The notes beneath the pieces are model-generated. The model saw only the letters and a program-made list of their open reading frames with translations, did no database searches and had not been told where the DNA came from. Below are positions 1-5,439 of a DNA stretch of 5,439 nt, piece by piece; position 1 is the first letter of the stretch, and each line of letters begins with the position of its first letter. The stretch is from Candidatus Thorarchaeota archaeon. Lineage in GTDB: Archaea; Asgardarchaeota; Heimdallarchaeia; Hodarchaeales; Hodarchaeaceae. The DNA lies in the NCBI GenBank assembly GCA_048882505.1, contig JBHLRO010000062.1, positions 1 through 5,439 on the forward strand. The letters are read 5' to 3'. Both the position numbers and the translations under genes were made by a program.

Positions 1-384
1 CCCTTTGATGCGAAACACCTGGCCTGTGGTGACGGGGGCGTGAATGAAACGCTCTTTGAGAAGGGAGGACGACACCACCAACGTGTATTTTGGATCAGTG
101 GGTCGAAACACCACGGTACGAGCGACTTGTTTCCGAATACCTTGACACTGCACGAAATCACCTACCTTCACGTTCAAGTTGTCACGAATCATTCGATCCA
201 TCCGAATAATGGGTAATTTGTCATCCACCCCTTTCGTGGCGAACACTTGCACCCCGATCCTGGGGTTTTTGCCCTCGGGTGAGATTGCAAGGTAGTCAGC
301 GCGGTCAAGGCCGTACAGGAGCATTTGGGAGGGCTCCATTCGTACGAACCCCTGGCCTTCATCGCTCGGATAGGCGTGGGCCAG
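1..384 (-). CDS. CDC48/VCP/VAT-type N-terminal domain protein (CDC48_N double-psi barrel plus start of CDC48_2). Runs off the left edge and lacks its own start codon; any AAA domain is outside the window.
   Basis: Manual translation 384->1: LAHAYPSDEGQGFVRMEPSQMLLYGLDRADYLAISPEGKNPRIGVQVFATKGVDDKLPIIRMDRMIRDNLNVKVGDFVQCQGIRKQVARTVVFRPTDPKYTLVVSSLLKERFIHAPVTTGQVFRIKG. This matches the archaeal CDC48 N-domain pattern (VAEAYxxDxGxGxxRxxP...IIRMDxxxRxNxxVxxGDxV...VVxxP...LxxRxxxxPVxxG). The frame is closed upstream by TGA at 403-405 with no ATG before the homologous region. Absent from the ORF track. Confidence 0.85.
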   Translation of the reverse strand, partial: MAHAYPSDEGQGFVRMEPSQMLLYGLDRADYLAISPEGKNPRIGVQVFATKGVDDKLPIIRMDRMIRDNLNVKVGDFVQCQGIRKQVARTVVFRPTDPKYTLVVSSSLLKERFIHAPVTTGQVFRIKG

Positions 385-1014: not shown

Positions 1015-1536
1015 TTATGGTTCTACACCTTCAAAATAATAAACATCTACAGCGTCCACTGCTCCACTTCCATAACCATATATACTATCATTTATCCAGA
1101 TATTTACCCTGATTATTTTCCCTGTATATCCGAAAGTATATGATTGCCATGAGGTTGTAAGAGTAAATATCTCAGAACCACCACCGCCGCCGCCTTCAGT
1201 ATAAATATGTAATCGTAATTTCATTGTGCTATCAGGTGATAAACTTTTAGATTTAACTTTTAACACCCAATATTCACTCGGTTGCCCAGAATAAGTTTGA
1301 AAAATCTGTCCTGCGGTAGTTATGTTTGCACTATAATCACCTTCAAAAGCATCAGTACAACGTGAAGTACTTGAAGACTCACTCCAATATACTAAATCGG
1401 AAGATGAGTACCAAGACTCTAAACCTCCATCATTTACTATTGAAACCTTCTTAAGAGCCTGTGTTTGTATGGGAAAAACCATCAAAAGAGCTATTCCTAT
1501 AAACAGCGCCATAAAAACATATCGTCTATTTATCAT
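1015..1536 (-). CDS. Secreted CBM4/9-like (galactose-binding-like beta-sandwich) protein, 173 aa, paralog 2
   Basis: Best start is ATG 1536 (MINRRYVFMALFIGIALLMVFPIQTQA|LKK), preceded by RBS-like GGAGCTGA just after the upstream stop. It has a Sec-type signal peptide and the motifs IVNDGGLESW, AFEGDYSA, QTY, LTTSWQSYTF and AVDAVDV typical of CBM_4_9-like folds. No catalytic or membrane-anchor domain is seen. Confidence 0.8.
   Translation of the reverse strand: MINRRYVFMALFIGIALLMVFPIQTQALKKVSIVNDGGLESWYSSSDLVYWSESSSTSRCTDAFEGDYSANITTAGQIFQTYSGQPSEYWVLKVKSKSLSPDSTMKLRLHIYTEGGGGGGSEIFTLTTSWQSYTFGYTGKIIRVNIWINDSIYGYGSGAVDAVDVYYFEGVEP
1177..1194 (-). repeat. (GGC)3(GGT)3 triplet run encoding Gly6
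   Basis: Plus strand accaccaccgccgccgcc; the protein reads EGGGGGGSE. Confidence 0.9.
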
Positions 1537-1550
1537 CTTCTCAGCTCCGT

Positions 1551-2087
1551 TTATGGATCTACTTCCAGCCAACCAAAATCAAGGGCATCTATTAGAACAT
1601 GAGGTGTTATCTCATAACATCCAACCATGATTCCAGTTGGAATCCCTGTATAACTGTTTGAAAAAGAAGTCCACGATGTTGAAGTAACATCTTTGGTTGA
1701 AGAATCATATCCACCTTCATATAAAATAACTAATATTATCCCCGTATAGGACCCTGCCGATTCCAGCCGGGCTTTCAATCTTAATGTCCAAGTACGTGAA
1801 GATAATCCAGAATAGTCTTGGGATATCCATTCTGCTTGAACATCGAATTCAACACTATAAGACCCACTGTAAGGTATAGGATTTTTTAAATAAGTCCCAC
1901 CTACATTTTTTTCATCCCAGTAAGTCAGGTCATTTTCATCATTCCAGTATTCGACACTACCATCAGTTATTATTGAATGCCATTTGAGAGCTGATACTTG
2001 TGTCACAGGAAATGACATAAAGAGAGCTATTCCCAGAGATAACGCCAGAAAGGCGTTTCGTTTTGTCATCAATTTTTGTATTTTCAT
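1551..2087 (-). CDS. Secreted CBM4/9-like protein, 178 aa, paralog 1
   Basis: ATG 2087 with AGGTGA 7 nt upstream. Signal peptide ...AFLALSLGIALFMSFPVTQVSA|LKW aligns with paralog 2 (GIAL.M.FP....ALK..SI..DG..E.W....DL.YW.E; YSGSYS ~ FEGDYS; TSTSWTSF ~ TTSWQSY; LIDALD ~ AVDAVD). Ends in VDP. Confidence 0.85.
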   Translation of the reverse strand: MKIQKLMTKRNAFLALSLGIALFMSFPVTQVSALKWHSIITDGSVEYWNDENDLTYWDEKNVGGTYLKNPIPYSGSYSVEFDVQAEWISQDYSGLSSRTWTLRLKARLESAGSYTGIILVILYEGGYDSSTKDVTSTSWTSFSNSYTGIPTGIMVGCYEITPHVLIDALDFGWLEVDP

Positions 2088-2273: not shown

Positions 2274-2604
2274 ATCCTGCGTCCACCTTCATTTTGATCA
2301 GGGGTCACTTCTTCAAATCCCCGTCTCGGTTTCTTCATTCTTCTCTGAATGAAATCGAATTTAAGCACCTTAATTGTGGGATCAAAGGCGCTACTGATCC
2401 TTTCTAGGATCTGTCTAGATTAGTATGACTCCATTTAAAAGCGATAAAGGCCCACTTTTTCACTAGGATTTCATGAAAATTAGTGAATAAATCACCAAAT
2501 GCATCGTCTAGATTTTCAAGAAATTTAGCATTTTGGGTATGATATTTGTCAAACAAAGACATCTGATAGACCTGTTTTCCTTCCATTACCTCAAATATGG
2601 TCAT
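2258..2604 (-). pseudogene. Hypothetical protein (~115 aa) with one apparent frameshift near 2404-2419
   Basis: Track ORF 2404..2604 (MTIFEV...KWSHTNL) can continue, by restoring 1 nt, into an open frame 2419->2258 (RQILERISSAFDPTIKVLKFDFIQRRMKKPRRGFEEVTPDQNEGGRRIWNIR*). That frame's end overlaps the next ATG. No family recognised. Confidence 0.45.
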
Positions 2605-2621
2605 GCTTTATGGTCATGTTT
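2596..2621. repeat. 13-bp-period tandem duplication at the right end of the AT-rich insert
   Basis: tatggtcatgctt (2596-2608) / tatggtcatgttt (2609-2621), 12/13 identical. Confidence 0.8.
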
Positions 2622-2751
2622 GGTTCGGTTTGACCCTCTTCTGGTGTTTGACGAGCAGGTACAGCAGCGTGATCCGTTGCGTGTCCGTGGGCGCAGTGAC
2701 CCGTACCACAGGCGCTAACACAATCCTCTGCAGGGGTTCCGTCTCGCTCAT
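2614..2751 (-). pseudogene. 45-aa ORF translationally coupled to the longin gene; probable detached 5' end of the CDC48-like gene
   Basis: ATG 2751-2749 overlaps the TGA of the upstream gene (ATGA). Reads MSETEPLQRIVLAPVVRVTAPTDTQRITLLYLLVKHQKRVKPNQT*. Its codon phase is the same as the CDC48-N frame at 384. Confidence 0.6.
2653..2667. repeat. Right copy of imperfect 15-bp direct repeat
   Basis: gagcaggtacagcag, 13/15 identical to 384-398. Confidence 0.55.
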
Positions 2752-3533
2752 TCCTCTTCACTGGGTACCTCGACCATGATGGTGCGCGTGTGGGATGCTT
2801 CGTCCCAGTAAACTTCATGATCCAGGCTGAAGTTCGAGAGTAACTCCTCTAGGATTTCCGTATAGAAACAGGCCCGCGGTTCCTGACATAGATGGCAGTT
2901 CTCACACTCCAACACGTACTGCGTATCGTTCCGATAGATAAAGTCGCCGTCCACCCGACTGAGCAGTCTGTCCACGAGACTCAATCGGCGCTCGATCTGC
3001 TGAGCGTGTCCGTAGGTGACCGCCTGGCGAACTAATCGCTGTGCTATCATGGCCGCTCGCTCGAACAAATCCACCTCCACAATTTCCTCTTCCATGAGCA
3101 GCCGTTCCTCCACTAGGGTGAGGATCAAGTGTAACTGAACATCGATCCCTCGCAGATAGGTCACCGCCTCCTGTTTAAACGGATCAAATTGGGTGACATC
3201 GAAAACAATGGACTGGTCGGTGTCGAGGGGAATGGTGGGGTATTGGTGACAGAACGTGTCGTGGAGGAGGGTCAGTGGATGTTCCACCCACTGGGGCCGT
3301 ACTCGAGCATCGAGCACCAAAACAAAGATGATCCCATTCTGGCAGTAAAATAACATCTGCTCCCGTCTCATCTGGATCGATTGGAGGACATCTTCCTTCA
3401 CCTGGGCGGTGAAACTAACTAACGCACTGACGAGATTGGCCTGGATCAGAGCAGACTCAGGGGCGTTCAGCTCAGGAAACGTAACGTGGAAGAGCAGCCC
3501 CCCATGTTCAATGATCGCAAATAAGGCTTTAAT
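2748..3533 (-). CDS. Longin-domain protein fused to a C-terminal Cys-containing V4R/Bet3(HNOX-like)-fold domain, ~261 aa; start codon uncertain
   Basis: The frame is open well upstream of the track's GTG 3401, to the TAA at 3612-3614. It reads IKALFAIIEHGGLLFHVTFPELNAPESALIQANLVSALVSFTAQVKEDVLQSIQMRREQMLFYCQNGIIFVLVLDARVRPQWVEHPLTLLHDTFCHQYP, which fits the longin pattern (beta-beta-alpha-beta-beta-beta-alpha; GxxLF, LxSAxxSF, IFVLxxD, FxxxY). The C-terminus has YVLECENCHLCQEPRACFYTEILEELL followed by beta strands, V4R-like. Confidence 0.75.
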   Translation of the reverse strand: MKALFAIIEHGGLLFHVTFPELNAPESALIQANLVSALVSFTAQVKEDVLQSIQMRREQMLFYCQNGIIFVLVLDARVRPQWVEHPLTLLHDTFCHQYPTIPLDTDQSIVFDVTQFDPFKQEAVTYLRGIDVQLHLILTLVEERLLMEEEIVEVDLFERAAMIAQRLVRQAVTYGHAQQIERRLSLVDRLLSRVDGDFIYRNDTQYVLECENCHLCQEPRACFYTEILEELLSNFSLDHEVYWDEASHTRTIMVEVPSEEE

Positions 3534-3540
3534 ATGCGCG

Positions 3541-3545
3541 CCTCC
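3541..3545 (-). promoter_or_regulatory. Candidate Shine-Dalgarno GGAGG, 7 nt before ATT 3533
   Basis: Minus strand GGTGGAGGCGCGCATATTAAAGCC, immediately ahead of longin strand beta1. Confidence 0.45.
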
Positions 3546-3759
3546 ACCGAGCGTGTCTGGGGAGGTGATCTGGTTGGTCTCCGGGCATTCACCCCCGCGC
3601 GCTTGCCCATCTTACCAGGTGAGGAGCGAGTCCCATTTTTTTCCATCGGTCACTCCCCTATCCTCCTTATCTACTCGACATCCCTCTATGCCATGGATCC
3701 GATTCTAACATCTGCCTTCAGATCAGAAAATCCGACCCTTAACCCTTTGGAATGTCCGT

Positions 3760-4050
3760 TTAAGCAAGGCCCAATACCGCCGTGAGCGGTCCCTGACAAT
3801 GGGGACAAACTGGTGACTCGATGAGAGTAGCGAGTGTGGCATAACAGGTGCCGCACAGGCAGATCTCACATTGGGGACACCAGTAGGCAGACTCGTGCGC
3901 GGCGTGCAGGCGTTCATCGATCTGGCAGAGGAAGGGCAGTTCCAATTGCAAGTCATAGGGGATGGTCAATTTCGGGAATCTTAATGCCAGAAGATTCTGG
4001 CTTAAGAGGTTCATTCCAACCACCTTCGCTGGATTCTTTTCATCTACCAT
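3760..4050 (-). CDS. Small protein (96 aa) with a C-terminal RING-like Cys-rich zinc finger (TFIIH p44 C4C4-like spacing)
   Basis: FLCQID-x9-YWCPQC-x3-LCGTC-x13-CPHCQGPL. The CxxD/CxxC/CxxC/CxxC arrangement could bind two Zn. Confidence 0.7.
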   Translation of the reverse strand: MVDEKNPAKVVGMNLLSQNLLALRFPKLTIPYDLQLELPFLCQIDERLHAAHESAYWCPQCEICLCGTCYATLATLIESPVCPHCQGPLTAVLGLA

Positions 4051-4126
4051 AGGACCGAGTCCCTCTTATAAACCTGGAATAAAATCTGACACCCCTGGAT
4101 CAACCAGGGATGCCTCGGCTAGAAGC

Positions 4127-4510
4127 TCAACGAAGGACCGCCCTGCGACATTGTTCTTCGTATCTGGCCATCTCAGCTGTCGCTTCGACCACCCACGGGC
4201 ATCCCCAGCGGCGTGCATTCTCCAAGACTTCATAGGCGTACTGGTTAGTCCGACACCCCTGGCGGATTATAACGGGCTCACAATCCATCGTCCCTTCGAA
4301 CACGATTTGGCCATCTTTGAGCGTACCTTTGGGCGGTTTATCACACTGCAGTTCAAAGCGGATATCCGCGAACACCTTGGGAATTTGATCCCAGATTCGT
4401 TTATAGGACTGACACATCCGTTCAGGTAATGTCTGCGCAATTTCGGCGCCTCTCTCGTATTGAAAGAGAATTTGGGCGTCCCGCAGGACTACTCGTTCAT
4501 ATTCTGGCAT
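4127..4510 (-). CDS. Hypothetical protein (127 aa from ATG 4510); may be frameshifted and really end at 4066
   Basis: GAGGTGG lies 7 nt before ATG 4510 (MPEYERVVLRD...), favouring it over ATG 4555. An alternative frame is open 4266->4069 (…RSFVELLAEASLVDPGVSDFIPGL*). No family recognised. Confidence 0.6.
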   Translation of the reverse strand: MPEYERVVLRDAQILFQYERGAEIAQTLPERMCQSYKRIWDQIPKVFADIRFELQCDKPPKGTLKDGQIVFEGTMDCEPVIIRQGCRTNQYAYEVLENARRWGCPWVVEATAEMARYEEQCRRAVLR

Positions 4511-4517
4511 ATACCAA

Positions 4518-4524
4518 CCACCTC
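4518..4524 (-). promoter_or_regulatory. Shine-Dalgarno GAGGTGG for the gene starting at 4510
   Basis: Minus strand AGAGGTGGTTGGTATATG. Confidence 0.65.
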
Positions 4525-5250
4525 TCATCTGTTTAGTAGAAGAAAAGGTATGCATGCTGTAAAAACCAGCAATTTGATACCTAAGTATCCTTCCTACGAT
4601 GATGCCCTATATTAGTTTTACCATCCGAATTATCTACTCCCCTTTTCTTTTAAAGCACGATTCATCTAGTATACCTACTTTCAAGCCTTATAGGAGGGTG
4701 AAGGATTTACACCAAGAGGATTCTCAAGAGGATACAAGATGAGGATTAATCTTACTGTAACATTCCCTGATATATCAAAATCATGCAGATTAAATTCCTT
4801 ATTTCAGCTTTTTAGATTAATTGATTCCTTCTTGCTCTCGATTCACTGATTGCAGGTATTTCTCAGATCACAAGGATCAGGTCTAGCAAAAAAAACCTCC
4901 ATAGATCAAGACAAATAAGCTACCAAATCATTCAAACATATATCTTTTATAAGGTATCTAATAATAAGCTCATAGGTATTTGTATAACAAATTTCAGGTT
5001 GATAGGGAGTTGAGAAGAGGTAGAGAATGACAAGTCCCTGTTTTCGATTGAAAATACAAAGGCGGGAAGATTAATATTCTTCCGATTCACAAGGGTTCAA
5101 TAAGGTTTCTAATAGAATGATTTCTGACTTAGACACAATATCAATTTGAAACAATCTTTGGATTGATCATACTACGAAATGGAGAGAAGTTGCGCATTGG
5201 TTTCGGGGGATAACTGCGTAGCCCTGGGGGCGCATCACTGACTGTCACGG

Positions 5251-5439
5251 TTAGGTCCAGCCTTTGATAACCTGTAAGACGAATTCCATCACGTCGATAT
5301 CGGTCTGTCCGGGGCCGTTCTCAGTAAGGAAGTTGGCAATCTTGGCGTGATCTTGGATGTCTAGGTTATCAAACACCTGGGGATGAAGGCGTTGGAGGCG
5401 GTTTAGCAACATGGCCCCTTGCGTAACCTGAATCAAACT
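5251..5439 (-). CDS. C-terminal part of a hypothetical protein entering from the right edge
   Basis: Frame open to the window edge: SLIQVTQGAMLLNRLQRLHPQVFDNLDIQDHAKIANFLTENGPGQTDIDVMEFVLQVIKGWT*. Helical, protein-like composition with GC-rich codon usage. Confidence 0.65.
   Translation of the reverse strand, partial: SLIQVTQGAMLLNRLQRLHPQVFDNLDIQDHAKIANFLTENGPGQTDIDVMEFVLQVIKGWT

What the first reader, a model, noticed from the sequence alone, without database searches (positions are those of the whole stretch)
2748..3533. Longin + V4R/Bet3-like fusion: both TRAPP fold types possibly in one polypeptide
Seen: an N-terminal longin-pattern domain (partly hidden by the track's late start) and a C-terminal CxxCxxCx5C-FY-x-ILxxLL domain. 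Established: eukaryotic TRAPP core is built from longin subunits (Bet5, Trs20, Trs23) and Bet3-family subunits (Bet3, Trs31, Trs33), which share a fold with prokaryotic V4R domains. Asgard archaea encode both longins and V4R/Bet3-like proteins. Inference: a single-chain fusion could be a Rosetta-stone link between the two folds, or a ligand/metal-regulated GTPase regulator. The second canonical V4R Cys motif is not evident, so the fold call is tentative.
Basis: partly seen in the sequence, partly recalled or inferred. Interest (0 to 1): 0.75.

Follow-up and report, generated by a model that had tools for sequence, protein, structure and literature searches.

The report
Asgard longin plus TRAPPC3/V4R-like fusion protein
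This gene from a Heimdall-group Asgard archaeon does join the two protein folds that build the eukaryotic TRAPP trafficking complex in one chain, but the architecture has been noted in the literature and this copy is a divergent paralogue with a damaged start.

Summary
The minus-strand frame 2748-3533 (open up to 3611) encodes a longin domain (residues 1-132) followed by a 4-Cys alpha/beta domain.

- **Homology:** the family aligns over both domains (hhalign 97%, E 1e-11) with a second Heimdall-class family whose C-domain passes Pfam V4R. Three of the four Cys align with Cys of Thor-type TRAPP-family proteins, relatives of the crystallised, Zn-binding Thor-TRAPPC3.
- **Distribution:** full-length relatives were found only in this archaeon's own order.
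- **Prior knowledge:** Tran et al. 2024 already show a Heimdall longin-TRAPPC3 model. First-stage notes of this scan flagged the family on other DNA.
- **This copy:**
  - it has no orthologue in the 23 other genomes of its order searched;
  - its GC3 is 0.65, against a genome mean of 0.38;
  - an in-frame TAA cuts it off from its likely GTG start, so it may be defective.
- **Function:** a role as a GTPase platform or regulator is inferred, not shown.

The parts
2748..3533 (-).
   Evidence: Translation without stops. 49-51% identical to the paralogue on contig C7 and to P0004/P0005.
3138..3533 (-). Longin domain, residues 1-132 (strand-strand-helix-strand-strand-strand-helix-helix)
2751..3131 (-). 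C-terminal TRAPPC3/V4R-like domain, residues about 135-261 (helix-helix-strand-strand-[Cys loop]-helix-strand-strand); its first helix continues the last longin helix
2868..2906 (-). Cys cluster C210-x2-C213-x2-C216-x5-C222, between strand 2 and the following helix; probable metal site
   Evidence: Conservation. hhalign places C213 and C216 on the CxxC, and C222 on the helix-start Cys, of Thor-type TRAPP-family proteins. The crystallised Thor-TRAPPC3, a relative of these, binds Zn through 4 Cys (PMC10933270).
3021..3065 (-). Helix 157-171, the counterpart of the family's conserved LG..vG.RLL helix; both glycines are replaced in this copy
   Evidence: Family consensus. hhalign aligns it with the LG..iG helix of Thor-type TRAPP and of the longin-V4R sister family.
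3534..3611 (-). 26 further in-frame codons upstream, homologous to the N-terminal extension of the C7-type paralogues; contains ATC 3569-3567 and a GGAGG (3545-3541) 7 nt before ATT 3533
3612..3614 (-). In-frame TAA that separates the body from the upstream GTG start
   Evidence: It aligns with a sense codon (Leu/Ser, codon 5) of the homologues.
3651..3666 (-). In-frame GTG (3653-3651) preceded by GGAGG (3666-3662, 8-nt spacer): likely ancestral start, 13 codons before the TAA
   Evidence: Read from the sequence. With the TAA read through, the frame would be 301 codons, against 297 aa in the homologues.
3399..3401 (-). GTG used by the gene caller (217-aa product P0002); it would truncate the longin domain
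3760..4050 (-). Upstream co-oriented gene, 96 aa, Cys/His-rich with RING/B-box-like spacing (weak Pfam hits only)
   Evidence: A second copy (83% aa identity) lies on contig C22, and the domain is widespread in the genus.
4127..4555 (-). Upstream co-oriented gene, 142 aa, orphan
   Evidence: The only relative among 5.8 billion proteins is the C22 copy of the same genome. Window 3758-4629 is 87.6% identical to C22:55245-56117.

Best explanation
The locus encodes a divergent member of a Heimdall-class family of two-domain proteins. An N-terminal longin domain is joined through one continuous helix to a C-terminal domain of the TRAPPC3(Bet3)/V4R superfamily. In this subfamily the usual V4R C-terminal Cys pair is lost. 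All four metal ligands sit instead in the loop between strand 2 and the next helix (C-x2-C-x2-C-x5-C), the place where Thor-TRAPPC3 and PoxR tie the sheet to that helix with Zn.

Shown: the two folds, the homology chain, the conserved Cys4, and the restriction of full-length relatives to one order.

Inferred: the longin half is a docking platform for a small Ras-superfamily GTPase, as in Bet5/Trs23, Mon1-Ccz1, MglB and SRX. The TRAPPC3-like half is a metal-stabilised module for dimerisation or for binding a small hydrophobic ligand, and it sets or senses the state of the platform. The protein would then be a single-chain, TRAPP-like GTPase regulator or adaptor.

This particular copy is a compositionally foreign paralogue (GC3 0.65). 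An in-frame TAA cuts it off from its likely GTG start. It is therefore either translated from a non-canonical ATC/ATT start or recently inactivated.
For: - **C-domain structure:** the AF2 topology is helix-helix-strand-strand-helix-strand-strand. Every natural match that covers the whole domain belongs to the Bet3/V4R/H-NOX/BcsD superfold. ESM Atlas leads point to V4R, BcsD and HNOB. The best Atlas shape match of the full model is a 265-aa Asgard cluster in which 75% of members carry V4R.
- **Homology chain:**
  - family versus longin-V4R sister family: hhalign 97.4%, E 1.3e-11, 227 columns over both domains;
  - C-domains alone: score 21.2, against a shuffle null of 11.8 +/- 2.0, maximum 17.9;
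  - sister C-domain passes Pfam V4R at E 1e-13 and aligns with Thor-type TRAPP at 94%;
  - family C-domain versus Thor-type TRAPP: score 25.4, P 0.0023, 0 of 200 shuffles reach it. This equals the score between Thor-type TRAPP and canonical V4R, 24.9.
- **Metal site:** three Cys align with Cys of Thor-type TRAPP-family proteins. Thor-TRAPPC3 binds Zn through 4 Cys. Members that lack one Cys have a compensating Cys.
- **Coupling of the domains:** one helix, residues 113-142, spans both domains, and the full model has pTM 0.78.
- **GTPase link:** a Rab-like GTPase lies 0.6 kb downstream of the C9 paralogue.
Against: - No member hits Pfam V4R or TRAPP at E up to 1.
- hhalign to canonical V4R finds nothing.
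- The C-domain-only profile links have P of only 0.002-0.01.
- The GTPase neighbour is kept only in one 92%-identical relative and in no other genome. No neighbour is conserved across the family. The function therefore rests on analogy.
- For this copy: there is no canonical in-frame start above GTG 3401 and there is a TAA at 3612-3614. The conserved glycines of the LG..vG helix are lost in this clade, which sits on a long stem branch of 1.85.
Confidence: 0.6

Rival explanations
1. This copy is a pseudogene or a decaying xenologue. The family is real, but the window's gene is no longer made as a full-length protein.
For: An in-frame TAA lies 13 codons after a GTG that has a good GGAGG, at a position where homologues have a sense codon. 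There is no ATG, GTG or TTG in frame until 3401, inside the longin domain. The copy has no orthologue in the 23 other genomes of its order searched. Its GC3 is 0.65 against a genome mean of 0.38, sd 0.04. It sits next to a duplicated orphan cassette. It lies on a long branch.
Against: The 287 codons are open, where chance would give about 5e-6. Every family-invariant residue is kept, including all four Cys. AF2 folds it confidently. An ATT with GGAGG 7 nt upstream, and an ATC, are available as table-11 starts just before the domain. The roughly 30-aa N-terminal extension is absent from most family members, so losing it need not matter. An assembly error could not be checked.
Confidence: 0.35
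2. The Cys cluster holds an iron-sulfur cluster rather than structural zinc. The C-domain would then be a redox, O2 or NO sensor that switches the longin platform.
For: The spacing C-x2-C-x2-C followed by a fourth Cys resembles ferredoxin-type and WhiB-type 4Fe-4S motifs (my knowledge of those families, not tested). Four ligands are maintained by compensation. The related H-NOX and V4R folds are sensor domains. The organism belongs to an anaerobic lineage.
Against: Three of the four Cys align with Cys of Thor-type TRAPP-family proteins, whose crystallised relative was shown by X-ray fluorescence to bind Zn through 4 Cys (PMC10933270). No tool here can tell metals apart.
Confidence: 0.25
3. The C-terminal domain is not related to V4R/Bet3. 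It would be an independent alpha/beta plait with a Cys knuckle, and the matches would reflect a common arrangement.
Against: Collinear profile alignments to two independent V4R/TRAPP families exceed every column shuffle. They place the CxxC, the helix-start Cys and the LG..G helix in register. The full-length alignment to the Pfam-V4R-bearing sister family runs through the C-domain. All natural whole-domain structure matches belong to one superfold.
Confidence: 0.15

Closest known systems
Heimdall longin-TRAPPC3 protein MBD3190748.1 (AF2 model; Tran et al. 2024, Commun Biol 7:273, Fig. 9g and Suppl. Fig. 10g)
   Same: It has the same architecture, an N-terminal longin domain and a C-terminal TRAPPC3-type domain, and comes from the same archaeal group. 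The authors modelled it as a homodimer.
   Different: I could not obtain its sequence, so I could not test whether it belongs to this Cys-loop subfamily, to the Pfam-V4R-bearing sister family, or to neither. The paper gives one model and no family analysis.
Heimdallarchaeia longin-V4R family found here (for example L130:1165-2040, L128:1070-1900; 270-300 aa)
   Same: It is homologous over both domains (hhalign 97.4%, E 1.3e-11). It shares the CxxC after strand 2 and the Cys-x-FF-x-G helix start.
   Different: The sister family keeps the canonical V4R C-terminal Cys pair and passes Pfam V4R. It was found in 16 of 61 genomes of the class searched, and not in this genome with that query. The window's family lacks that motif, has four Cys in one loop, often ends after strand 3, and was found full-length only in one order.
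Thorarchaeal TRAPPC3 (PDB 7YH2, 7YH3) and eukaryotic Bet3-family TRAPP subunits (TRAPPC3/5/6; PDB 2J3T, 3CUE, 7B6D)
   Different: Those are single-domain proteins of about 160 aa that pass Pfam TRAPP; this domain does not. Their fourth Cys lies in strand 4; here it lies 3 residues before the CxxC. Eukaryotic Bet3 has no metal site. Membership of a multi-subunit TRAPP complex is not shown for this protein.
TRAPP longin subunits Bet5/TRAPPC1 and Trs23/TRAPPC4, and tri-longin GEFs (Mon1-Ccz1, Fuzzy-Inturned)
   Same: These are the best structural matches of the N-domain. In TRAPP these longin subunits pack against Bet3 to make the Rab-binding surface (established: Cai et al. 2008, PDB 3CUE).
   Different: There the two folds are separate chains; here they are one chain. 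No GEF activity or GTPase partner is known for this protein.
Bacterial and archaeal V4R sensor domains (PoxR/DmpR/XylR N-domains; Pfam PF02830)
   Different: No direct sequence or profile similarity was found. The canonical C...ExxC...C pattern, seen in this genome's own thioredoxin-V4R-V4R protein, is absent.

Membership tests
Longin domain (SNARE-like fold) | Strand-strand-helix-strand-strand-strand-helix-helix sandwich of about 120-130 residues, including the C-terminal third helix that roadblock domains lack | tested here: met
Longin domain (Pfam PF13774 / PF19036) | Score above the Pfam gathering threshold | tested here: not met
   The window protein hits Longin at E 0.2, 12 bits, against a cut-off of 26.2. 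9 of 16 family members hit Fuz_longin_1, best E 5.3e-6; whether any member passes the cut-off is not listed.
Pfam V4R (PF02830) | HMM match; helix-start Cys plus the C-terminal E/C-x2-C ... C pair in strands 3-4 | tested here: not met
   None of 16 members hits at E up to 1. hhalign to canonical V4R domains gives P 0.16-0.64. The C-terminal Cys pair is absent. Only the helix-start Cys (C222) has a counterpart.
Pfam TRAPP / Bet3 family (PF04051) | HMM match above the cut-off | tested here: not met
   None of 16 members hits, and the family was not found in the own genome. The profile-profile score to Thor-type TRAPP is 25.4, P 0.0023, above all 200 shuffles. That is a remote relationship, not membership by the family's own rule.
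TRAPPC3/V4R/H-NOX superfold | Two-layer fold: N-terminal helices, a strand hairpin, a helix, a second strand hairpin, in that order | tested here: met
TRAPPC3/V4R superfamily | Metal (Zn) site that ties the strand-2 region to the following helix | tested here: inconclusive
   Four conserved Cys lie at that junction, and three are in register with Cys of Thor-type TRAPP-family proteins. The presence and identity of a metal cannot be tested here.
TRAPPC3/V4R superfamily | Dimer through the two N-terminal helices | not testable with these tools
   No decisive test was available. This needs SEC-MALS or a structure.
TRAPP complex (Rab GEF) | Assembly of Bet3-family and longin subunits that binds a Rab and speeds nucleotide exchange | not tested
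The genomic link to a Rab-like GTPase exists only for the C9 paralogue and one close relative.

The most novel reading that the evidence does not exclude
The family is a single-chain proto-TRAPP. A Bet5-like longin domain and a Bet3-like domain, rigidly joined, would together form the exchange surface for an Asgard Rab-like GTPase, with the Cys4 site acting as a metal or redox switch. It would then be a living Rosetta-stone fusion showing that the longin-Bet3 partnership of TRAPP predates eukaryotes.
Probability: 0.15. Interest if true: 0.8.

Novelty: new variant of a known kind. Interest (0 to 1): 0.42.

Why it matters
TRAPP, the Rab1/Rab11 exchange factor, is built from exactly these two folds. 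How and when they became partners is an open point in the origin of eukaryotic membrane traffic.

Fusion of the two folds in the archaeal group closest to eukaryotes is independent evidence that they work together. The analysis here goes beyond the single published model:

- there are at least two homologous fusion families in Heimdallarchaeia;
- one of them, the window's, has rebuilt its metal site and is confined to one order;
- intact paralogues, one of them next to a Rab-like GTPase, are named as concrete material for biochemical tests.

The window's own copy is the least suitable member, because its start is damaged.

Tried and rejected
- **Homodimer prediction:** the full-length protein was run with complex prediction and gave no verdict (median score 0.00; one of three runs 0.42). 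I draw nothing from it.
- **Sequencing reads:** The TAA at 3612-3614, expression and possible assembly error could not be checked, and read laying was not used.
- **RNA genes:** Rfam and tRNA scans of the window found nothing, so the GC-rich island is not an RNA gene.
- **PDB sequence searches:** only chance-level hits, namely the SRX domain at E 0.22 for the longin part and prefoldin at E 0.19 for the C-part.
- **Distant C-domain relatives in the own genome:** a search with profile A3 found only the three paralogues.
- **Conserved gene neighbourhood:** none was found beyond close relatives.
- **Identity of the published MBD3190748.1:** accession look-ups and the paper's supplement gave no sequence.
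- **Programmed frameshift from the out-of-frame ATGs (3646, 3610):** rejected as the main reading. Homology to the paralogues continues in the body's own frame upstream of the G-run, up to the TAA. Slippage on the A7 run leads only to stops (read).
- **Chimeric contig:** not supported. One end overlaps contig C44 by 77 identical bases, and the upstream cassette has an 87.6% copy on C22.

Full report
**What is there**

The window is a whole 5,439-bp contig (C62) of a 4.3-Mb, 94.6%-complete Asgard MAG. Its nearest named relatives are labelled Heimdallarchaeota or Promethearchaeota. On the minus strand a frame is open from 3611 to the TGA at 2750-2748.

The gene caller's product (P0002, 217 aa) starts at GTG 3401. 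That start falls inside the first domain.

**Relatives**

- Two paralogues lie in the same genome. One is on C7 (297 aa, 49% identical). The other is on C9 (244 aa, 26% identical).
- A profile search of 1.84 billion representative proteins found only about 14 full-length clusters. More than 100 further hits match the N-terminal 100-130 residues alone. Those hits carry longin Pfam families.
- Across 400 genomes of the phylum, full-length matches occur only in the own genus and in two genomes of the same order. Elsewhere only the longin part matches.

**N-terminal domain**

An AlphaFold2 model built on 16 family members has pLDDT 83 and pTM 0.78. Residues 1-132 form a strand-strand-helix-strand-strand-strand-helix-helix unit.

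| Comparison | Result |
|---|---|
| Foldseek best hits | TRAPPC1/Bet5 (7b6d_C, 2j3t_C) |

This is a longin domain. Pfam sees it only below threshold.

**C-terminal domain: structure**

Residues 104-261 modelled alone have pLDDT 86.5. The order is a long helix that continues the last longin helix, two more helices, a strand hairpin, the Cys loop, a helix, and a second strand hairpin. Apart from the shared first helix, this is the order of V4R and Bet3.

The structure searches are weak but point one way.

- After de novo designs, Foldseek lists Bet3-family TRAPP subunits (2j3w_B at E 4.6e-3; 7b6d_F at TM 0.44). H-NOX, TPC6, Thor-TRAPPC3 and BcsD follow.
- AFDB clusters add TRAPPC6B, a 4-vinyl-reductase protein and a haem-NO-binding protein.
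- ESM Atlas leads add V4R, BcsD and HNOB.
- The best Atlas shape match of the full-length model is a 265-aa Asgard cluster in which 75% of members carry Pfam V4R.

**C-terminal domain: sequence**

No family member hits Pfam V4R or TRAPP. A profile of the C-domain finds nothing against the canonical V4R domains of this class's thioredoxin-V4R-V4R proteins.

The Atlas lead pointed to a second family, which I recovered from the genomes. Its proteins are 270-300 aa, with a longin-like N-half and a C-half that passes Pfam V4R at E 1e-13 to 1e-9. It occurs in 16 of 61 genomes of the class searched. It was not found in this genome with that query.

| hhalign comparison | Result |
|---|---|
| Window family vs sister family, full length | 97.4%, E 1.3e-11, 227 columns over both halves |
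| Longin halves alone | 97.9% |
| C-halves alone | score 21.2; column-shuffle null 11.8 +/- 2.0, maximum 17.9 |
| Crossed halves | nothing |
| Sister C-half vs V4R | 97% |
| Sister C-half vs Thor-type TRAPP (Pfam PF04051) | 94% |
| Window family C-domain vs Thor-type TRAPP | score 25.4, P 0.0023, 112 columns; 0 of 200 shuffles reach it |
| Thor-type TRAPP vs canonical V4R (accepted relatives) | score 24.9 |
| Longin half vs Thor-type TRAPP (negative control) | score 13.1 |

The alignments put several features in register:

- the family's LG..vG.RLL helix on the LG..iG helix of the Thor-type proteins;
- C213 and C216 on their CxxC;
- C222 on the Cys that starts the next helix.

Those Thor-type proteins have exactly four Cys. 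The crystallised Thor-TRAPPC3 binds Zn through four Cys that tie the sheet to that helix (PMC10933270). Here the fourth ligand has moved. Strand 4 carries no Cys, and some members end after strand 3. C210 sits three residues before the CxxC instead. Two distant members that each lack one Cys have an extra Cys after C222.

I conclude that the C-domain is a remote, remodelled member of the TRAPPC3/V4R superfamily. It is somewhat nearer to the TRAPPC3 side, and it is not a member of either Pfam family by their own thresholds.

**Function**

No neighbour is conserved across the family. The C9 paralogue is followed by a small zinc-ribbon gene and a Rab-like GTPase. That GTPase is kept only in one 92%-identical relative.

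The functional reading therefore rests on what the two folds do elsewhere. Longin domains are GTPase platforms in TRAPP, Mon1-Ccz1, MglB and SRX. TRAPPC3/V4R domains dimerise and bind small hydrophobic ligands (established literature). The shared helix and the pTM of 0.78 suggest rigid coupling.

I put about 35% on a GTPase-regulator or adaptor role for the family. The fold and homology part I hold at about 80%.

**This copy**

- In a maximum-likelihood tree it is sister to the C7-type copies (100/100) on a long stem, with its own branch of 0.55.
- It has no orthologue in the 23 other genomes of the order searched.
- Its GC3 is 0.65. The mean for 2,162 long frames of the genome is 0.38 (sd 0.04), and its nearest relatives have 0.40-0.42.
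- The 2-kb window around it is among the highest 0.25% in GC.
- The two co-oriented genes upstream are a 142-aa orphan and a 96-aa RING/B-box-like protein. They form a cassette that is 87.6% identical to a copy on contig C22, which lacks the longin gene.
- At the 5' end an in-frame GTG (3653-3651) has GGAGG 8 nt upstream. Thirteen codons later comes a TAA (3614-3612), where homologues have a sense codon.
- After the TAA the only in-frame starts before the domain are ATC 3569 and ATT 3533. The ATT has GGAGG 7 nt upstream.
- The body is intact and keeps every family-invariant residue.

I cannot decide between a downstream non-canonical start, a recent nonsense mutation and an assembly error.

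**What is known already**

Tran et al. 2024 (PMC10933270) show an AF2 model of a Heimdall protein with an N-terminal longin domain and a C-terminal TRAPPC3 domain. They note it in the discussion. No other paper in the library mentions that accession. I could not obtain its sequence.

First-stage notes of this scan had flagged the same architecture on the C9 paralogue and on four other genomes, without follow-up. One of them gave the lead to the Bet3-like LG..G helix, which I tested with hhalign.

**Verdict**

The kind is known. This subfamily, with its relocated Cys4 site and narrow range, is a variant of it. This particular copy may be defective.

Noticed in passing
window 3758-4629 and G000:C22:55245-56117 (L068:4248-4999): A GC-rich two-gene cassette (142-aa orphan plus 96-aa Cys/His-rich RING/B-box-like protein) is present twice in this genome at 87.6% DNA identity. 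The C22 match to the 142-aa protein includes an in-frame TGA near its 5' end, and the ORF called there is 127 aa. The 142-aa protein has no other relative among 5.8 billion proteins. The RING-like domain recurs in many larger proteins (about 550-600 aa) of the genus.
   Followed up: partly
window 2500-4630: A compositional island of 51-53% GC lies in a 41% GC genome and is flanked by 34-38% GC. The three genes in it have GC3 of 0.52-0.65, against a genome mean of 0.38. The CDC48_N-like fragment at 1-339 is also GC3-rich (0.63). The two secreted-protein genes between them have GC3 of 0.24-0.27.
   Followed up: partly
window 1015-2087 (minus strand): Two tandem paralogous genes (185 and 178 aa, 37% identical) have an N-terminal hydrophobic segment and no Pfam hit. 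The 185-aa one has a Gly run. They are probably secreted or membrane-anchored proteins.
   Followed up: no
window 1-339 and 5251-5439; G000:C1:366514-367314; G000:C44 end: The contig starts inside a gene with a CDC48_N-like domain (Pfam E 8e-8, just under the cut-off). It ends inside a gene whose last 62 residues are 71% identical to a stretch on C1. That stretch lies 277 bp downstream of a 55%-identical CDC48_N-like stretch. The two contig ends therefore seem to carry parts of two paralogues of one gene type. The last 77 bases are identical to the end of contig C44, which is an assembly overlap.
   Followed up: partly
L003:2414-3374 (G000:C9): The C9 paralogue of the target is followed by an 87-aa zinc-ribbon protein (two CxxC pairs) and a 189-aa Rab-like small GTPase. 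The GTPase neighbour recurs only in the closest relative, G070.
   Followed up: partly
L004:763-2361 (G000:C22): The only Pfam-detectable V4R protein of this genome is a 532-aa thioredoxin-like domain followed by two V4R domains. This architecture is conserved in 38 of 41 genomes of the class searched.
   Followed up: no
f31 genomes, e.g. G320:C81:53728-57050: Thor-type genomes carry two Pfam-TRAPP genes about 3 kb apart. They look like a conserved pair of Bet3-like paralogues.
   Followed up: no
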